This document shows, one piece after another, positions 34,633 to 64,000 of a stretch of 64,000 bases of DNA; positions within the stretch are counted from its first letter, which is position 1, and each line of letters begins with the position of its first letter. The DNA lies in assembly GCA_000004985.1 (NCBI GenBank), contig GG738901.1; one strand, given 5' to 3'. The DNA is from Naegleria gruberi. Taxonomy: Eukaryota. A program made the translations under genes and the position numbers. Below the pieces are notes generated by a model, which saw nothing but the letters and a program-made list of their open reading frames with translations, ran no database searches and was not told the DNA's origin.

Positions 34633-35446
34633 AGAAACACATTCTCTTCTTAAGAATGTTGTTATAGGGTTGACTGATTAATGTTGTAATTTATACATAA
34701 GTTTGTTGACCATTTCCATTAGTAGGAGGAGTATAATAAGAAGGTTGTGGAGTAACATAGGTTGGTGGTGGTTGATTGACCATCATTGGTTGACCGTATT
34801 GTGGTTGATAAGGTTGTTGAGTCATCATTGGTTGACCATATGGTTGTTGTGGTGGATATGGTTGACCATAAGGTTGTTGTTGAGGTGGATAATAAACACC
34901 AGGTCCTGGATTTTGAATAACAACTGTAGTGACAGGTGGCATTGTTGGTTGAGCAGTGACAAGAGTAGAAGGCATTGTTGCTACTCCAATGGCAGCTGCT
35001 GCTTGTTGTTCTTGAGCTCTTCTCATCATCATAAGTCTTCTCTTTCTGGAAGCAGCACTAACAATAATGATAATTGCAATAAATATTATGAAACCTGGAA
35101 TTCCAAATCCTAAACCATATCCTAAAGCATCATAATCTCCATAACTATTCGAAACACAAACATTGGAAGAACAAGTTTGGGAAGAAGAACAACATGCATA
35201 ACTAGAAGCAATACATGTTGAATAACCAGATTTTCTACAACAAGTTTGTCCAGATAAGCAATAAACATAATTAGTGGAACCTGTTACTGAGCAACAAATA
35301 CTATCTTGAACAGCTGACACTTGGCTTTCATTGAGAGATGAGAAAGAAAGTTCCCCCTTTAATGAATTATCACCATAAGTTGTCAAACGGGCAGAGATTT
35401 TGGCACCTGACACGAGGAGTAATAACACAACTAGTGAGCTGGCAAT
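34600..35446. repeat. Segmental duplication, copy A. It is paralogous to 38620..39460.
   Basis: About 850 bp of near-identical sequence lies in direct orientation 4.0 kb apart. It covers the 3' UTR and CDS of the membrane-protein gene. Identity stops exactly at the position of copy B's start codon. Confidence 0.8.
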
Positions 35447-35899
35447 TTGGACCCATATTCTAATTTGCTCTTTGATTTGAGTTCTTTTCAAAGTTGGAGC
35501 ACTCTTTTTGATGAAACTAATTACTTTTGGAAGAAGGTTGTTGTTGGTTGGATCTGGCTTTGAAGATGAAGGATGAAGTGCTTCGTTTTGATGAATATCG
35601 CACCTTGCTTGGTGGTGATGAATTACCTTCAACTTTACATTACAAAATTCATTGCATTGACATGAAATATAGTAGTAAAGTTGAGGAGTTCCTACTTCAC
35701 ACTTATTGAATTCCTTTCTTTCTGAGTAAATGTCTTTCAATTCATAAATCATATTGTCCTTCATAACTGCTCGGCATAAAGAAGCTTGCTCAGTCACTTC
35801 ATGAACAGAGTGCACCTTCCATGGACGTTGTAAGTGGTTACAAATTCTATCGAACACATCTTGGTGCTCAATATTTGAGAGTAGTGGAGTATAACTCAT
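34691..35899 (-). CDS. Membrane-protein gene, copy A of a duplicated pair. It has a Cys-rich ectodomain, one TM segment and a GYPPQQ-like Q/P/Y-rich tail. Its 5' end is a chimeric fusion to a non-homologous upstream ORF.
   Basis: The 3' 750 nt are about 97% identical to copy B (38702..39487). Where B has its start codon and signal peptide, A reads ...KEQIRIWVQIASSLVVLLLLVSG. This is in frame with 150 upstream codons, MSYTPLLSNIEHQDVFDRICNHLQRPWK..., that have no counterpart in B. Confidence 0.55.
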   Translation of the reverse strand: MSYTPLLSNIEHQDVFDRICNHLQRPWKVHSVHEVTEQASLCRAVMKDNMIYELKDIYSERKEFNKCEVGTPQLYYYISCQCNEFCNVKLKVIHHHQARCDIHQNEALHPSSSKPDPTNNNLLPKVISFIKKSAPTLKRTQIKEQIRIWVQIASSLVVLLLLVSGAKISARLTTYGDNSLKGELSFSSLNESQVSAVQDSICCSVTGSTNYVYCLSGQTCCRKSGYSTCIASSYACCSSSQTCSSNVCVSNSYGDYDALGYGLGFGIPGFIIFIAIIIIVSAASRKRRLMMMRRAQEQQAAAAIGVATMPSTLVTAQPTMPPVTTVVIQNPGPGVYYPPQQQPYGQPYPPQQPYGQPMMTQQPYQPQYGQPMMVNQPPPTYVTPQPSYYTPPTNGNGQQTYV

Positions 35900-36799
35900 T
35901 CTATTTTTTTTGCTTGTTGTTGATGAATTGTTCCTTATTGTTGTTTTGTGGTTCTATTGCAAGATATATGTGTTGGTGTGTTGTGTGGTGTTTGTTGTAT
36001 CGTTAAGAATTTTTTTGATTGGTTGAACAATTGGCGCCATGTTTAATTTCCGTGTTTTGCCTTTTAGGAACAATAAAATTTGCTGTTTAAGAACAAAAAA
36101 TTGCAAATTAAGATGGATTTCTAAATTGTTCACAAATATGTACTTTACTGTGCTGGATGTAATGGAAAATAATGCTACTCAAATTAAGATATTAGACTTC
36201 CTTAAAAGTCAAAAAGACTAAGACACAAATTACAGTTTCAAGCGAGGAGCAGGGGTAGAAATCTTACTTTTAATTTAGGGTTCATCAAAAAATTGCGAAA
36301 TAATTGGGGTAAACAACATTATTTATTTATTTATTTCTTCTTTCGTGCTCTACTAGAGTTTCTCTTTACTGCTTCTTCAAATTGTGAATTCTTTGGTCCA
36401 CGTTTTTGTTTCTATAGCGGTTCTTCTTGTTCCAATTCCTTCTCTTGTTAAGGCTATGGAATTATCGTTGCTGAGAAAGTCTTCTTCACTTTTTCTTTGT
36501 TATGATGGGGTGAAGTACAAAATAATTGTATCGTGCTGGTTGTTGTGGATTAATCTTCCTTTCTATTTACAAAAGTGTATAACCAATTACCATCTCTACT
36601 AAGGTAATATATCCTTTAGTAATTTCTTGATGGAAATAGCTCTTGGCATTCATGAAGCGAAGGTAAGGTGTTTTATTGTAGGTGCAGTGGAAACATTTGG
36701 GAGTGCCTGCTTTTGTTTTGGTAGAGGATTTGGTTCCTTGAGGTTTTTTTAAATATTTACAACAAAGAACACAGCAGAAGAGGTTTTCGAAAAGATAAG

Positions 36800-38619: not shown

Positions 38620-39460
38620 CTACTAGTTCAACTTTAAGATTATAAGAAACCGTTTCTCTTCTTAAGAATGTTGTTATCGGGTTGACTGATTAATGTTTAA
38701 TTTATACATAAGTTTGTTGACCATTTCCATTGGTAGGAGGAGTATAATAAGAAGGTTGTGGAGTAACATAGGTTGGTGGTGGTTGATTGGCCATCATTGG
38801 TTGACCGTATTGTGGTTGATAAGGTTGTTGAGTCATCATTGGTTGACCATATGGTTGTTGTGGTGGATATTGTTGACCATAAGGTTGTTGTTGAGGTGGA
38901 TAATAAACACCAGGTCCAGGATTTTGAATAACAACTGTAGTACCACCACTGACAGGTGGCATTGTTGGTTGAGCAGTGACAAGAGTAGAAGGCATTGTTG
39001 CTACTCCAACGGCAGCTGCTGCTTGTTGTTCTTGAGCTCTTCTCATCATCATAAGTCTTCTCTTTCTAGAAGCAGCACTAACAATAATGATAATTGCAAT
39101 AAATATTATGAAACCTGGAATTCCAAATCCTAAACCATATCCTAAAGCATCATAATCTCCATAACTATTCGAAACGCAAACATTGGAAGAACAAGTTTGT
39201 GAAGAGGAACAACATGCATAACTAGAAGCAATACATGTTGAATAACCAGATTTTCTACAACAAGTTTGTCCAGATAAGCAATAAACATAATTAGTGGAAC
39301 CTGTCACTGAGCAACAAATACTATCTTGAACAGCTGACACTTGGCTTTCATTGAGAGATGAGAAAGAAAGTTCCCCCTTTAATGAATTATCATCATAAGT
39401 TGTCAAACGGGCAGAGATTTTGGCACCTGACACGAGGAGTAATAACACAACTAGTGAGCT
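38620..39460. repeat. Segmental duplication, copy B.
   Basis: See the copy-A repeat entry. Confidence 0.8.
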
Positions 39461-39487
39461 GGTAATTAGGACGAGAATTGATTTCAT
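38702..39487 (-). CDS. Membrane-protein gene, copy B. It has a signal peptide, a Cys-rich ectodomain, one TM segment and a GYPPQQ-like Q/P/Y-rich cytoplasmic tail with a PPxY motif.
   Basis: The start is ATG 39487..39485, encoding MKSILVLITSSLVVLLLLVSGAKISA. The ectodomain has about 20 Cys (CCSVTGSTNYVYCLSGQTCCRKSGYSTCIASSYACCSSSQTCSSNVCVSN). The TM segment is GFGIPGFIIFIAIIIIVSAA, followed by an RKRRLMMMRR stop-transfer. The tail reads VYYPPQQQPYGQQYPPQQPYGQPMM...PPPTYVTPQPSYYTPP. Compared with copy A it carries a 12-nt SGGT-coding insertion. Confidence 0.7.
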   Translation of the reverse strand: MKSILVLITSSLVVLLLLVSGAKISARLTTYDDNSLKGELSFSSLNESQVSAVQDSICCSVTGSTNYVYCLSGQTCCRKSGYSTCIASSYACCSSSQTCSSNVCVSNSYGDYDALGYGLGFGIPGFIIFIAIIIIVSAASRKRRLMMMRRAQEQQAAAAVGVATMPSTLVTAQPTMPPVSGGTTVVIQNPGPGVYYPPQQQPYGQQYPPQQPYGQPMMTQQPYQPQYGQPMMANQPPPTYVTPQPSYYTPPTNGNGQQTYV

Positions 39488-40323
39488 TTTTTTTAATGGG
39501 GAAAAGTAAGAAGGAATTTATTTTGTTGATATTTACAACATAATGTTGATGAACCTGAGAGCTGCCTTTCAACAACATTCGAATAGCACTATGGTGGAAT
39601 AGAGATAGGAAGGTGAGGTGTCAATGTCAGCAGTATCTTTTGTTTGGTACTTTTTTAGACCCCAAGATTCGTTTAGGCTACGATACTTGCCAAAAATTAT
39701 GTTGTATTACGTTTTCTCAAGCCTGTTTGTGTTTCACAAAAAATAATTAGCGATTAATTTGAAAACTATATTTGTATTGATGTGTTTTGAATTCGTCCAA
39801 AAAGTAGTGAGGTGTTGTGACATTAATTTCTACTTGTTGTTGCATAGAATTGTTTTTCAGTGTAGTTTTACACTCTAACTCTATCGATTCAATCAATTGA
39901 TTGATCTACATACAACAGTGAAAGATTTTGACAATTCCTTACGATTATCTCTAAAATAATTATTGAACCAAAAACTTGTTTTATTGTTCTGGTATTAAAA
40001 ATTGAACAAATGCTCAATACTATTGCTCAATTTCTTAGTCTTTTTTTGAATGTCTTGTGATATTCAGGGTGAGAGGATCTGTGACAGGGCTTTTTTATGA
40101 TGACCAAACACTGTTAAGTTGACAAGCAAACATCTTTAGTAAACTATTTTTAACAGATATTCAGTTCTCAAAACCATAACATTTAAACTTTTTCAATTTT
40201 TACGAATTCAATAAGGAAAACAAATTCGAATAGAATTTCAATTCGTTCTAAAAATCTTTGTCATTAAGTTCACTATTCACATGTCCAGCACCATGAACTT
40301 GATTCCAAAAATCATTAAAAAAA

Positions 40324-60300: not shown

Positions 60301-61406
60301 TTATTCAGTCTTAGTCTTCTTCTTCTTGTTCCAATGAGGCTTACCACCACGTCCACCAAAGCCCTTTCTCTTATTCTTATTGCTTTCAGCAAACTTAGCT
60401 TCACAGGTCTTAGCAATATACTTTTCCAAATCTTCTGGAGCCATTTCCGAAGCAACAGCTTTACCTGGAAGTTCAATCTTTCCTTCATCGAATTGTTGTT
60501 TAAGAGAATCGAAAACTTCCTTTGATTCCAATCGAAGAATAGCCTTGGTCTTATCACCATCGAGTGGGAAATCAATAAACTTCAAACCATTCTTCTTGTT
60601 GTATGGCAATTTCTTGGAGAAATCAGCAAATCCGAACTTTTCGTCACCTTCAATTCCTTGAATGTGCAAGAAAAAGTTTTGCTTCAATTCAGTTTGCATA
60701 TTAGAAACATCTTCTTGCTTCTTTTCTTGATTCTTCTTTTGCTTACTTTCTTCACGTTCCTTTCTCTTTCTATCAAAATGTTGTTGCTTGGTTTCCAAGA
60801 GGAGAACAGATTCTCCAAACTTGAAGTCAGACTTTCCAGCCAATTCATTAACAGTAGATTCAGAATCGAATTCAATGAAAGCAGATCCCTTGAATGTACC
60901 ATTCTTTTCTCTTCTGGCTCTAACACAGACAACTTTACCAAAAGGTTCAAAAAGAGCCTTGATTGAATCGAGATTAGCAACACTTTCATCGAGTGGGAAT
61001 CCCTTAGCATATAAAGTACGAGCATTGCTAGTATCAACTTCTGGAAGAGCAGTGATTCTTCTAACCAACTTTCCTTCAGCATCAATTTCCAACATGGAAC
61101 TCTTCTTCAAAGCAGAAACAATAAGATCCATATCAGTAGAAATTTGTTTCATTCTATTAAAGGAAGCAATAGTCTTAAGTTCAACATCTATTCATCATCA
61201 TCATTATCAAATTATCATCATCATCAACAATAATATCAATGTATGGGATATCGGTTAATCAATATTGACAATATAAAACACTTACATCCTTCAGGATTGT
61301 TAGCAACGAGACTTCTCAAAAATTTATCCTTTGGAAGATTACTATCACTAAAGTAGAATTCAACTTGTTCACGAATCTTGTTTGAAGTAATTTCAGCGTC
61401 AGACAT
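60301..61406 (-). CDS. La protein (SS-B-like) with a La motif, RRM1 and RRM2. Exons are 61286..61406 and 60301..61187 on the minus strand.
   Basis: Exon 1 encodes MSDAEITSNKIREQVEFYFSDSNLPKDKFLRSLVANNPEG, the La-motif signature (QVEFYFSDxNLPRDKFL). A 98-nt intron at 61188..61285 has a GTAAGT donor and gatgaatag acceptor, in phase 1. Exon 2 begins YVELKTIASFNRMKQISTDMDLIVSALKKSSMLEI. The RRM runs RTLYAKGFP...GSAFIEFDSE and ends with a basic tail. Confidence 0.8.
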
Positions 61407-61832: not shown

Positions 61833-63136
61833 TTAGTTTTGATGTTCAGGGTGATTATGTCTCGAGTAGAGTGGTTGATCATCTATTTCGTCAGATAAAT
61901 CTTGTATATGAAGACCAGCAAAGGTACTTGAGCTCAGTGTACTCAATTTGATAACTTGCATTTTGCTGAGGGAGATTTCTAATTCTTGTTCAATTTCCTT
62001 TGAGGATTCCTCAGTGATGGCATTCTGATTTTGTAACCAATTGATAAAGTATTCTTCACTGGAGCAAGTGAGGATTGAGAAAACTATTCCTCTATAGTAG
62101 GACCAAAAGTAGTAACTGCCAACAAATATTGGTGTCATGGAGATGACAATTCTGATTGGAATTATTCTGTGAAGTGATAAGAGCCATGTCAGTAAGGCAA
62201 TAATAATACTAGCTACAATAAGAATGAGTCCACTGGTTTCAGTTGCTGCAGAACTGAACTCTTCAAGTACTCTGGAGAAAGTGAATATTGTAAATAAATT
62301 ATTAGTGAACACTTACTTTCTACTAAGAATAATCATAATAACAATCAATACCAAGTAAAAAATTGTAAATGAAAAATTGACAGCAACAGAAGTGACACTA
62401 TATCTACACTTGTCATTGCTAATATAAATTTCCTCAATTGCACTCGCAATAATACAGTAAATTATTACAGGAATCAGCAAGAGCACAATGAAAACCATGT
62501 TAATATATTTGAGTTTTCTCTTTGTTTTAAATCCAATCAAGACAATGAGTTGTCTTGTGAGCAATGTGCAAATCCAACCAAACTATTTCAATTTTTTAGA
62601 ATAATCCATTGCGAAGAAAATACTTACAAATCCAATATTGAAAAACCAAATTGAAAATGTCACACACAATCCCTTTGTTGAATTTGCGAGTAATCCATTA
62701 TTGAACTGTAAAATTCGAAAGATTAAGAATGTATCATTTCTAATACTGAAAAATATGAAATACCTACACAATATCCAATAAACATGACTGCATTGAAGAA
62801 TAAAGTTTTTGCCATTAGAAAGGGATGTTTCGAACGGACAGCAATCTTCTTGTACTTGGTAAAAACCAAAGCCATAGCAACGAAATTACACAAAATCATG
62901 AAACAACCAACAGAAAAAGCAACAATATCTGCAGGTGTTTGTGATGGTACTGGTTTAAATCCGAAAGGGTTTAGAATAGATGAATTAGAGGAATCTCCTG
63001 AATATAATGGTTGATATTGTTCCGTATCAAAATCTCCAAATAAATTAAACAGAGTTGATAGGAGTGGTGTTTGTTGTTCTTCTCCTATCGAATGAAATGT
63101 TAAATGTGTCATGTCATCCACAGTATGTTGAGACAT
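61833..63136 (-). CDS. Seven-transmembrane receptor-like protein (GPCR-like, family unassigned). The four minus-strand exons are 62768..63136, 62628..62705, 62317..62582 and 61833..62271.
   Basis: Four minus-strand track ORFs join through three introns of 62, 45 and 45 nt with GTAGGT or GTAAGT donors, in phases 0/0/2. The result has 7 hydrophobic helices:
- IVAFSVGCFMILCNFVAMALVF
- LFFNAVMFIGYCFNNGLL
- LCVTFSIWFFNIGFFGWICTLL
- MVFIVLLLIPVIIYCIIASAI
- FSFTIFYLVLIVIMIILS
- GLILIVASIIIALLTWLLSL
- ISMTPIFVGSYYFWSYYRGIVFSIL
The N-terminus is about 60 aa and extracellular. The C-tail is about 90 aa and acidic. Confidence 0.65.
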
Positions 63137-63269
63137 TTTTTATTATAATTGTTTGATGGGCTGACAAGCTTGATTACAATACTTTCGAATATTGTGATAC
63201 ATACATTTATTATGTATAGTGGAGAACTAAATACTGATTAAATATTAAATACATGCAGAATATCTTTGA

Positions 63270-64000
63270 TTACAGAACAAATCTTGGTACGTTCTCATTT
63301 TCCTGTGCTAAATAATTTATATTATCAATGTTATTCATTGATAACATGTTTCCAATATTAAATTGAGTAAGGTCTGTATTCTGAGAGAGGAGAAATGTCA
63401 GAATAGTTTCAGAATCATTTGGTCCTGTATATTCTGTGAAATAATCAGAGAAGGGATACTTTTCCAATTTTTCCTTAAAGAGATCAAGCTTGGTAAAAAC
63501 TATTGAAACATCCGCTGGTATATATTCTGAATAATTTACAAATTCACTAAAATTTTGTAAAGCCAACCAAAGACAATTAGCTCCAGAAATTGAGTCTGTT
63601 AAATTGTAATCTGCAAGGGAAATTAAATAAATTACTCGTGTCATGGTATTGTCAAAATGAGAAATCCACTTTCGTTTCTCATTTCTTTGTGGACTAGGAT
63701 CAATTAGTTTACTTGTTTCAAATGAAAATTCATAAATTGATGACTTGGAATGAGGTATTTTAGTTTGTAAAAGATCATGAATTGTAAAATCTGCATTGAT
63801 TGCTTGTAATTTGGCAATGAAATTCTCAGAAAAAAAGTATCGAATATTTTCCATATATCTGAAATGATGTGAAATGAATTCCAATTCCTCACTCTTTAGC
63901 ATTGTTAAATATTTCATAAATTCGATCATGCTTGATGTGAAAACTCCACTTTTCCTAGCTTTTTTAATTTCCTCATTTAAATTACTGAATTTAAAATCGA
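63270..64000 (-). CDS. Heterotrimeric G-protein alpha subunit, divergent, 3' part only. The 5' end lies beyond position 64000.
   Basis: The minus-strand frame is open to the window edge, and the track ORF's M at 63929 is internal. HDLLQTKIPHSKSSIYEFSFETSKLIDPSPQRNEKRKWISHFDNTMTRVIYLISLADYN aligns with G-alpha [60 protein letters not shown]. The switch-II DVGGQ reads DPSPQ, the switch-I TTG reads SKS, and NKKD reads TKLD. The effector region EYTGPNDSETILTFLLSQ matches FPEYTGPNTYEDAAAYIQ. Confidence 0.65.
   Translation of the reverse strand, partial: DFKFSNLNEEIKKARKSGVFTSSMIEFMKYLTMLKSEELEFISHHFRYMENIRYFFSENFIAKLQAINADFTIHDLLQTKIPHSKSSIYEFSFETSKLIDPSPQRNEKRKWISHFDNTMTRVIYLISLADYNLTDSISGANCLWLALQNFSEFVNYSEYIPADVSIVFTKLDLFKEKLEKYPFSDYFTEYTGPNDSETILTFLLSQNTDLTQFNIGNMLSMNNIDNINYLAQENENVPRFVL

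What the first reader, a model, noticed from the sequence alone, without database searches (positions are those of the whole stretch)
61833..64000. A divergent G-alpha gene with degenerate nucleotide-binding motifs lies 133 bp upstream of a 7TM receptor gene on the same strand
The G-alpha stop is at 63270 and the 7TM start is at 63136. Both genes are on the minus strand and only 133 bp separate them. Such tight head-to-tail linkage of a receptor and a G-protein subunit is unusual in eukaryotes and suggests co-regulation or a shared transcript.

The G-alpha aligns well with canonical subunits across switch I, switch II and the effector region. Three motifs differ from the consensus:
- the invariant switch-II DVGGQ reads DPSPQ, so the Gly needed for the GTP-dependent conformational change is lost while the catalytic Gln is kept
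- the switch-I Thr (TTG) reads SKS
- NKKD reads TKLD
This could be a GTPase-impaired, constitutively biased or pseudo-G-alpha.
Basis: partly seen in the sequence, partly recalled or inferred. Interest (0 to 1): 0.55.

Follow-up and report, generated by a model that had tools for sequence, protein, structure and literature searches.

The report
Divergent Naegleria G-alpha beside unrelated 7TM gene
The window comes from the amoeba Naegleria gruberi, where a real but catalytically degenerate G-protein alpha-subunit paralogue lies next to a small class-C-like seven-helix receptor gene; the pairing looks like ordinary tight gene packing, not a functional unit.

Summary
The sequence facts hold. A G-alpha ORF on the minus strand stops at 63270. 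A four-exon 7TM gene starts at 63136, 133 bp downstream. DPSPQ and TKLD align with DVGGQ and NKKD.

The organism is Naegleria gruberi, not a dictyostelid. The full 326-aa protein keeps a Walker-A P-loop (GACSSGKS). It has Lys for the arginine finger, His at the Mg-binding Thr, Pro at the switch-II Gly, no TCAT box and no lipidation signal.

It belongs to a small heterolobosean subfamily: an N. gruberi paralogue, an N. lovaniensis protein and two environmental proteins. All share the Arg-to-Lys/Gln and Asn-to-Thr changes. I therefore read it as a maintained, probably non-cycling G-alpha, not fresh decay.

The linkage idea is not supported:
- 133 bp is a normal tandem spacing here.
- The 7TM orthologues in N. 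lovaniensis and Willaertia have no G-alpha neighbour.
- The G-alpha relatives have no 7tm_3 neighbour.
- No in-frame splice fuses the two ORFs.

A review already records a 44-member G-alpha family in N. gruberi, some members with deviant catalytic motifs. Modest interest: a new member of a known kind.

The parts
63270..64000 (-). 3' part (residues 85-326 plus stop) of the N. gruberi G-alpha-like gene P0001. Residues 1-84, including the P-loop, lie beyond the window end.
   Evidence: ORF and translation. 100% identical to the N. gruberi predicted protein. Pfam PF00503 at 117 bits for the fragment and 151.6 bits for the full length.
63738..63761 (-). Switch-I equivalent KIPHSKSS (residues 164-171). 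Lys replaces the arginine finger (Gai1 R178) and His aligns with the Mg-binding Thr181.
   Evidence: HMMER alignment to Go; MAFFT column mapping.
63687..63701 (-). G3/switch-II box DPSPQ (residues 184-188) in place of DVGGQ. Asp and the catalytic Gln are kept; Gly203 is Pro. The following helix RNEKRKWISHFD is well conserved.
63483..63494 (-). G4 box TKLD (residues 253-256) in place of NKKD. Lys and the guanine-specifying Asp are kept.
63273..63380 (-). Strongly diverged C-terminal tail (residues 291-326: no TCAT G5 box; short helix ending ..PRFVL).
   Evidence: The Pfam match stops at profile position 302 of 333. The BLASTP alignment to the paralogue P0004 stops at residue 290. No conserved tail is found in other frames. 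Relatives end in ..TVL..VVF or ..VIV.
63137..63269 (-). 133-nt AT-rich spacer (25% G+C) between the G-alpha stop and the 7TM ATG. AATAAA lies at 63211-63206. Stop codons occur in all three frames.
61833..63136 (-). 7TM gene of 383 aa. Exons: 63136-62768, 62705-62628, 62582-62317, 62271-61833 (stop at 61835-61833). Introns of 62, 45 and 45 nt, all GT-AG.
   Evidence: Gene model. Junctions match the orthologues P0002 and P0003. Pfam 7tm_3 E=5.4e-7, 30.0 bits; orthologues score 37.6 and 43.9 bits against a cut-off of 33.5. Seven long helices in a low-confidence AF2 model.

Best explanation
These are two independent neighbouring genes in the gene-dense nuclear genome of Naegleria gruberi.

Gene 1 is a paralogue from the large N. 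gruberi G-alpha expansion. It belongs to a small heterolobosean subfamily that lacks three canonical features:
- the built-in arginine finger (Lys or Gln instead);
- the Asn of NKxD (Thr instead);
- the N-terminal Gly/Cys lipidation signal.

In the Naegleria members the switch-II Gly that senses the gamma-phosphate is also lost.

Shown:
- the fold family;
- an intact Walker A;
- retained Asp of G3, Gln204 equivalent, and Lys and Asp of G4;
- a well conserved switch-II helix (ExxKW..F).

Inferred: the protein may still bind guanine nucleotide. It probably cannot hydrolyse GTP at a useful rate or undergo the GTP-driven switch-II change. It would then act as a non-cycling G-alpha, that is, a nucleotide-state-independent partner or buffer for G-beta-gamma or another switch-II-binding protein. 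This is comparable in logic to plant XLG proteins or to Gly-to-Ala switch-II mutants of animal G-alpha.

Gene 2 is a 7TM-only, class-C-like (7tm_3) receptor conserved across Naegleria and Willaertia.

Their 133-bp head-to-tail spacing reflects normal gene packing, not an operon-like unit.
For: Identity:
- (N. gruberi protein, 100% identical).
- (Pfam G-alpha, 151.6 bits).
- (alignments to solved Go and Gi structures).

Subfamily:
- Only 4 proteins at E<=1e-30 among 1.84 billion representatives; the next hits fall to 1e-20.
- Sources are an N. gruberi paralogue, N. lovaniensis and two metagenome contigs.
- Shared substitutions are shown.

Maintained gene:
- An uninterrupted 242-codon ORF lies in 31-33% G+C DNA.
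- The subfamily-typical ..h-V-L C-terminus is kept.

Functional precedent:
- A deviant P-loop (TAQ) in N. fowleri G-alpha-1 slows GTP hydrolysis and abolishes RGS action. Gai1 G42V is GTPase-deficient and G42R cannot activate (PMC9283941).
- XLGs work without nucleotide (PMC8584482).
- That review also reports 44 G-alphas in N. gruberi, with deviant catalytic motifs in some.

Independence of the two genes:
- Spacing statistics.
- No G-alpha lies near the 7TM orthologues L001 and L002.
- No 7tm_3 gene lies near the G-alpha relatives L003-L005.
- An AATAAA hexamer is present and no in-frame fusion intron exists.
- The other neighbours are unrelated housekeeping genes.
Against: - No biochemical or expression data are available for this protein.
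- TKLD fits the general [NT]KxD consensus, and the P-loop, G3 Asp and Gln204 equivalent are kept. Some GTPase activity, perhaps GAP-assisted, cannot be excluded.
- The last 36 residues are unusually diverged even from the closest paralogue, which could mean relaxed constraint.
- Both AF2 models were low confidence (pLDDT about 46), so nothing structural was added.
- The genomic context of the N. gruberi paralogue P0004 could not be retrieved, and the sequence upstream of this G-alpha lies outside the window.
- Lack of conserved synteny does not prove lack of functional coupling in N. gruberi.
Confidence: 0.6

Rival explanations
1. A functional receptor-transducer gene pair. The 7TM protein signals through, or is regulated by, the adjacent atypical G-alpha, and the two are co-regulated or co-transcribed.
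For: Same strand with a 133-bp gap. Both products belong to GPCR/G-protein families. A GTAATC...AAG intron at 63273-63169 could in principle extend the G-alpha mRNA across the 7TM start, giving a tail IIIKNVSTYCG that faintly resembles canonical VIIKNNLKDCGLF.
Against: The gap is typical for this genome. The adjacency is not conserved in N. lovaniensis, Willaertia or the environmental relatives. Heterolobosean genomes show no polycistronic architecture. An AATAAA hexamer lies inside the spacer. With 44 G-alphas and an assumed 50-100 7TM genes among about 15,700 genes (gene total from memory), about a one-in-three chance of at least one such neighbour pair is expected (my estimate). The G-alpha C-terminal helix, the main receptor-contact element, is the least conserved part.
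Confidence: 0.07
2. A decaying, functionless paralogue: a young pseudogene that still has an open frame and was left over from the lineage-specific G-alpha expansion.
For: Catalytic positions are lost: Arg finger, Thr181, Gly203 and G5. The C-terminal 36 residues are not alignable to the nearest paralogue. Only 38% identity to its closest relatives.
Against: A full 326-codon ORF in AT-rich DNA, where stop codons arise easily. The same Arg-to-Lys/Gln and Asn-to-Thr changes are shared by relatives in another species and in environmental heteroloboseans, so they are old and retained. Strong conservation of the switch-II helix, of ISLADYN and of the PFSDYF.EYTG blocks.
Confidence: 0.12
3. A working GTPase switch with an unconventional catalytic set-up. 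It would bind GTP through the P-loop and TKLD and rely on Gln188 plus a trans-acting GAP or Lys164, cycling slowly like the 'self-activating' or slow-hydrolysing Naegleria G-alphas.
For: Walker A, the G3 Asp, Gln, and the G4 Lys and Asp are kept. The environmental subfamily members keep DxSGQ. Naegleria G-alphas show a wide range of kinetics, and N. fowleri has 28 seven-transmembrane RGS proteins plus 79 other RGS-domain proteins (PMC9283941).
Against: Pro at the Gly203 position has no backbone NH to contact the gamma-phosphate. His stands at the Mg-binding Thr. Cys sits at the Ras-G12-equivalent position. RGS proteins do not supply an arginine finger (established knowledge).
Confidence: 0.2

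Closest known systems
Canonical heterotrimeric G-alpha subunits (Pfam PF00503; e.g. human Gi1/Go, N. fowleri G-alpha 1-13)
   Same: Same domain family, with a Ras-like domain plus a helical insertion. Walker A P-loop, G3 Asp, catalytic Gln, G4 Lys/Asp, conserved switch-II helix and the ..EYTGxN.. region.
   Different: Lys for the arginine finger, His at Thr181, Pro at Gly203, Thr for the Asn of NKxD, and no TCAT G5 box. The alpha-5 tail is short and diverged. The N-terminus is MSKRKQQ rather than a myristoylation/palmitoylation signal.
Plant extra-large G proteins (XLG1-3)
   Same: G-alpha homologues with weakly conserved nucleotide-binding motifs that function independently of GTP (PMC8584482). 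This is the best functional analogy.
   Different: XLGs carry a long N-terminal Cys-rich/NLS extension and are plant-specific. This protein is G-alpha-sized (326 aa), heterolobosean, and keeps a Walker A motif. The degeneration arose independently.
N. fowleri G-alpha-1 with atypical P-loop (TAQ)
   Same: A Naegleria G-alpha in which the P-loop Gly and Glu positions are replaced. It is experimentally slow in GTP hydrolysis and insensitive to RGS domains (PMC9283941). P0001 has Cys and Ser at the same two positions.
   Different: As far as the paper describes, NfG-alpha-1 differs from the other N. fowleri G-alphas in its P-loop only. P0001 deviates at many more sites. Orthology was not established.
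Class C / glutamate-family GPCRs (Pfam 7tm_3), especially 7TM-only orphans
   Same: The seven-helix core matches 7tm_3 over nearly the whole profile. The top, though weak, fold hits of the low-confidence model are CaSR and mGlu receptors.
   Different: There is no Venus-flytrap or other extracellular domain (about 65-aa N-terminus). The window protein itself scores 30.0 bits, under the 33.5-bit cut-off. A 3-sequence profile finds no solved class C receptor by sequence.

Membership tests
Heterotrimeric G-protein alpha subunit (PF00503) | Significant match to the G-alpha profile above the curated cut-off | tested here: met
   151.6 bits against a 48.8-bit cut-off for the full length; 117.2 bits for the window fragment.
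Heterotrimeric G-protein alpha subunit (PF00503) | G1 Walker A GxxxxGK[ST] | tested here: met
   GACSSGKST at residues 33-41, outside the window. Cys and Ser replace Gly42 and Glu43 of Gai1.
Heterotrimeric G-protein alpha subunit (PF00503) | Intrinsic arginine finger in switch I (Gai1 R178) and Mg-binding Thr181 | tested here: not met
   Lys164 and His167 in both the HMMER and MAFFT alignments. All five subfamily members lack the Arg.
Heterotrimeric G-protein alpha subunit (PF00503) | G3 DxxGQ (gamma-phosphate-sensing Gly plus catalytic Gln) | tested here: not met
   DPSPQ: Asp and Gln are kept, Gly is Pro.
Heterotrimeric G-protein alpha subunit (PF00503) | G4 NKxD | tested here: inconclusive
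   TKLD. It deviates from the G-alpha NKxD but fits the wider GTPase consensus [NT]KxD (from memory; not tested here).
Heterotrimeric G-protein alpha subunit (PF00503) | G5 TCA[TV]DT box and full-length alpha-5 helix | tested here: not met
   The Pfam match ends at profile position 302 of 333. The tail is not alignable to the paralogue.
Heterotrimeric G-protein alpha subunit (PF00503) | N-terminal myristoylation/palmitoylation signal (MGC..) | tested here: not met
   The N-terminus is MSKRKQQKLH. All subfamily members start with basic residues and none has Gly2.
Heterotrimeric G-protein alpha subunit (PF00503) | GTP binding and hydrolysis; G-beta-gamma binding | not testable with these tools
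   Needs biochemistry.
Class C GPCR (7tm_3, PF00003) | Profile match above the curated cut-off | tested here: inconclusive
   Window protein: 30.0 bits against 33.5 (E=5.4e-7). Orthologues P0002 and P0003 pass at 37.6 and 43.9 bits.
Class C GPCR (7tm_3, PF00003) | Seven transmembrane helices | tested here: met
   The model shows seven long helices (68-94, 104-125, 134-168, 175-202, 207-240, 247-270, 275-305), although its pLDDT is only 46. The hydropathy scan separately picked out hydrophobic stretches over five of them (68-96, 136-168, 171-205, 211-245, 244-282).
Class C GPCR (7tm_3, PF00003) | Large extracellular ligand-binding (Venus-flytrap) domain | tested here: not met
   Only about 65 residues precede TM1 and no other Pfam domain is found.
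Co-transcribed or functionally linked gene pair | Adjacency conserved in related genomes or among paralogues | tested here: not met
   L001 and L002 (7TM orthologues) have no G-alpha nearby. L003-L005 (G-alpha relatives) have no 7tm_3 nearby.
Co-transcribed or functionally linked gene pair | Spacing shorter than the genome background | tested here: not met
   133 bp lies within the common range of tandem gaps, 83-225 bp.
Co-transcribed or functionally linked gene pair | Transcript spanning both ORFs | not testable with these tools
   No RNA data were available. AATAAA lies in the spacer and no in-frame fusion intron exists.

The most novel reading that the evidence does not exclude
The heterolobosean 'finger-less' G-alpha subfamily (Lys/Gln for the Arg finger, TxxD G4, no lipid anchor) could be a distinct, nucleotide-state-independent class of G-alpha-like adaptors that arose independently of plant XLGs. 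In N. gruberi one member might have been recruited as the dedicated partner of the adjacent VFT-less class-C-like receptor, with the two genes sharing regulatory sequence or a read-through transcript.
Probability: 0.05. Interest if true: 0.6.

Novelty: new member of a known kind. Interest (0 to 1): 0.25.

Why it matters
Naegleria has one of the largest G-alpha repertoires known, and Bosch et al. 2022 named only one sequence-similar GPCR candidate in N. fowleri. Two points are therefore useful for anyone mapping G-protein signalling in this lineage, which includes the pathogen N. fowleri:
- a conserved class-C-like 7TM-only receptor exists in Naegleria and Willaertia;
- a small subfamily of G-alphas lacks the arginine finger.

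A natural G-alpha with Pro at the switch-II Gly would be a convenient test case for nucleotide-independent G-alpha function outside plants. The gene adjacency itself carries little meaning.

Tried and rejected
- Fusion gene. I enumerated GT-AG introns that could join the G-alpha ORF to the 7TM ORF in frame and found none.
- Hidden canonical C-terminal exon. I searched all frames of 63000-63450 with the C-terminal 60 residues of relatives and of Gai1. The only hit was an AT-rich IIIKNVSTYCG* at 63149-63117 (E=0.08). It is reachable through a 105-nt GTAATC..AAG intron. I judged it to be chance because the relatives end like the unspliced ..FVL and the spliced tail would be too long.
- Synteny. 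tblastn and tblastx of the loci around the 7TM orthologues and the G-alpha relatives against the window matched only the query genes themselves.
- Structure prediction. Both proteins, modelled from 3-sequence alignments, gave pLDDT of about 46. The fold search on the 7TM model returned only weak GPCR hits (E about 5e-3, TM about 0.4). I did not run a fold search on the G-alpha model.
- A profile of the three 7TM proteins found no solved class C receptor by sequence.
- The third homologue search, with the subfamily profile, returned no new members.
- N. gruberi contigs are not in the contig index, so the 5' flank of this gene and the context of the paralogue P0004 could not be fetched.
- Anantharaman et al. 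2011 (PMC3396428) is not held, so its content is cited only through the review PMC8584482.
- A crude motif census of the 150 best representatives found 9 proteins lacking the switch-I, G3 and NKxD patterns together. They include fungal, nucleariid and other proteins, so degenerate G-alphas recur widely.
Full report
**What is in the sequence.** On the minus strand an ORF runs from the window end (63998) to a TAA stop at 63272-63270. Its 242 residues match Pfam G-alpha (PF00503) at E=1.1e-33, covering profile positions 100-302 of 333. They align with solved Go and Gi structures at E about 1e-15. The next minus-strand gene has its first possible ATG at 63136, with an in-frame stop three codons upstream. 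The spacer 63137-63269 is 133 nt long, 25% G+C, and has stop codons in all frames. I built a four-exon model for the downstream gene, with introns 62767-62706, 62627-62583 and 62316-62272, all GT-AG. It encodes 383 aa ending at 61835-61833. All three junctions read through cleanly in an alignment with two orthologues.

**Organism and full-length G-alpha.** The fragment is 100% identical to a 326-aa 'predicted protein' of Naegleria gruberi, carried on a 309-kb contig. The window is thus heterolobosean, not dictyostelid. This fits the 31-37% G+C and the short introns. The P-loop reads GACSSGKST, so Walker A (GxxxxGK[ST]) is intact. However, Cys occupies the Gai1-Gly42 (Ras-Gly12) position and Ser replaces Glu43. 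The N-terminus is MSKRKQQKLH, with no Gly2/Cys3 lipidation signal.

**Motif audit (mapped onto human Gai1).**
- R178, the intrinsic arginine finger, is Lys164.
- T181, the Mg2+ ligand, is His167.
- DVGGQ is DPSPQ: Asp and the catalytic Gln are kept, and Gly203 is Pro.
- NKKD is TKLD: Lys and Asp are kept.
- The TCAT G5 box has no recognisable counterpart.
- The last 36 residues do not align even with the closest paralogue.
- By contrast the switch-II helix (RNEKRKWISHFD against [12 protein letters not shown]), the ISLADYN block and the PFSDYFTEYTGPN block are well conserved.
- TKLD fits the general GTPase G4 consensus [NT]KxD. From memory, dynamin has TKLD. On its own it is not evidence of lost nucleotide binding.

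**A conserved subfamily, not a one-off.** An exhaustive HMMER search of 1.84 billion representatives found 2181 G-alpha relatives. Only four, counting P0001 itself, reached E<=1e-30, with one more at 1e-27. After that scores fall to 1e-20. The relatives in this group are:
- an N. gruberi paralogue (NAEGRDRAFT_63704);
- an N. lovaniensis protein (C9374_010133);
- two proteins from one environmental assembly.

All of them have Lys or Gln at the arginine-finger position, Thr at the NKxD Asn, a basic non-lipidated N-terminus and a ..h-V-L-type C-terminus. The two environmental members keep DxSGQ. The three Naegleria members have Pro, Asp or Glu at the Gly position. The deviations are therefore old and retained across species. 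The authentic C-terminus is the annotated ..PRFVL, and the open frame is maintained in AT-rich DNA. This argues against a recent pseudogene. The uniquely diverged tail of P0001 does leave some room for relaxed constraint.

**Likely mechanism (inferred).** The following rests on established G-alpha biochemistry:
- Loss of the arginine finger abolishes fast intrinsic hydrolysis.
- Substitutions at the Gly42 position impair hydrolysis or activation. Gai1 G42V and G42R are cited in PMC9283941.
- Replacing the switch-II Gly prevents the GTP-driven rearrangement. From memory, Gly-to-Ala mutants of Gs and Gi stay bound to beta-gamma.

In Naegleria itself, an atypical P-loop (TAQ) in NfG-alpha-1 slows hydrolysis and removes RGS sensitivity. 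I therefore think P0001 is a non-cycling G-alpha-like protein. It may still bind nucleotide. It would act through its conserved switch-II surface as a constitutive partner or buffer, for example of G-beta-gamma. In logic this is analogous to the nucleotide-independent plant XLGs (PMC8584482). None of this was tested. A slow or GAP-dependent GTPase remains possible.

**The 7TM gene.** Pfam 7tm_3 (class C) matches over almost the whole profile, at 30.0 bits, just under the 33.5-bit cut-off. The orthologues in N. lovaniensis (49% identity) and Willaertia magna (42%) pass at 37.6 and 43.9 bits. The protein has only about 65 residues before TM1, so it has no Venus-flytrap domain. After TM7 there is a conserved TCSSEEYF..WL segment. 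The AF2 model is poor (pLDDT 46) but shows seven long helices. Its best, weak fold matches are CaSR and mGlu receptors among other GPCRs. No N. gruberi entry for this protein came back from the protein database, so it may be unannotated there.

**Is the linkage meaningful?**
1. Spacing. Rough tandem gaps in this window include 104, 110, 129, 133, 176, 216 and 225 bp. In annotated N. lovaniensis and Willaertia loci, six of 14 tandem gaps are 83-130 bp. So 133 bp is ordinary.
2. Conservation around the receptor. Upstream of the N. lovaniensis 7TM orthologue lie an acylphosphatase gene and a Ras/Roc-type small-GTPase gene. Upstream of the Willaertia orthologue lie a gene with no Pfam match and a PPR gene. 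tblastn with P0001 finds nothing in either locus.
3. Conservation around the G-alpha. The loci of the N. lovaniensis and environmental G-alpha relatives contain no 7tm_3 homologue.
4. Wider synteny. Nothing else in the 64-kb window is syntenic with those loci. The other neighbours here are La, YdjM-like, 14-3-3, PARG and LRR genes.
5. Transcript signals. An AATAAA lies 59 nt after the G-alpha stop, and no in-frame intron can fuse the ORFs.
6. Genome architecture. A 2026 preprint finds about 2 genes per same-strand run and equal intra- and inter-run spacers in Heterolobosea. That means no polycistronic architecture.
7. Chance expectation. N. gruberi has 44 G-alphas (review citing Anantharaman et al. 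2011). With several dozen 7TM genes (an assumption) among about 15,700 genes (from memory), at least one such neighbour pair is expected by chance roughly one time in three (my estimate).

The co-regulation or shared-transcript idea is thus unsupported. Only transcript data can exclude it.

**Comparison with what is known, and novelty.** The review PMC8584482 states that N. gruberi has perhaps the largest G-alpha family. It adds that deviation of catalytic motifs occurs in some Dictyostelium, Naegleria and plant G-alphas. Degenerate G-alpha-like proteins also turn up in fungi, a nucleariid and other protists in my crude motif census. The protein itself is already in public databases as an uncharacterised predicted protein. 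Two things appear to be new detail. One is the delineation of a small heterolobosean subfamily with a shared 'no Arg finger / Thr-G4 / no lipid anchor' signature. The other is the recognition of a conserved class-C-like 7TM-only receptor in Naegleria and Willaertia. Bosch et al. 2022 listed only one cAR-like GPCR candidate for N. fowleri. I file this as a new member of a known kind, of modest interest.

**Loose end.** In the G-alpha frame, 63149-63117 reads IIIKNVSTYCG*. This faintly recalls the canonical G-alpha C-terminus and is reachable by a 105-nt GTAATC..AAG intron. I consider it a chance product of AT-rich codons, because the relatives end like the unspliced protein. RNA-seq would settle it.

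Noticed in passing
window 34694-35953 (-) and 38705-39517 (-): Two ORFs about 3 kb apart are 94% identical over 264 aa. They look like a recent local duplication of a Cys-rich single-pass membrane protein with a Pro/Gln/Tyr-rich tail.
   Followed up: partly
window 61833-63136 (-): The 7TM gene was not returned as an N. gruberi protein by the protein-database search, which found only the N. lovaniensis and Willaertia orthologues. The neighbouring G-alpha is present in that database. The gene may be missing from the N. gruberi annotation.
   Followed up: no
window 63117-63149 (-), with possible intron 63169-63273: In the G-alpha reading frame the sequence over the 7TM start codon reads IIIKNVSTYCG*, resembling the canonical G-alpha C-terminus VIIKNNLKDCGLF. 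A GTAATC..AAG intron of 105 nt would join it in frame. I judged this to be chance (AT-rich codons, E=0.08).
   Followed up: partly
L001 11399-13081 and L002 7081-8685: A PPR-repeat gene lies close to the 7TM orthologue in both species: adjacent in N. lovaniensis and one gene away in Willaertia. This suggests ancestral microsynteny. No PPR match appeared anywhere in the 64-kb N. gruberi window.
   Followed up: partly
L004 1037-1804 and L005 2512-3636 (ENA assembly ERZ27315067): Environmental contigs carry members of the same G-alpha subfamily. They keep DxSGQ in switch II but already lack the Arg finger and the NKxD Asn, and have THID or TYVD at G4. They may represent the less degenerate ancestral state.
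   Followed up: partly
window 60301-61406 (-): A two-exon La-domain plus RRM protein gene lies directly downstream of the 7TM gene, about 426 bp from its stop. It is unrelated to G-protein signalling.
   Followed up: partly
proteins P0152, P0041, P0058, P0088, P0031: Other G-alpha-family proteins also lack the switch-I RxxTxG, DxxGQ and NKxD patterns by a crude regex. They come from Lithocolla and several fungi (Mycena, Elasticomyces, Pseudovirgaria). Motif-degenerate G-alphas recur across eukaryotes.
   Followed up: no
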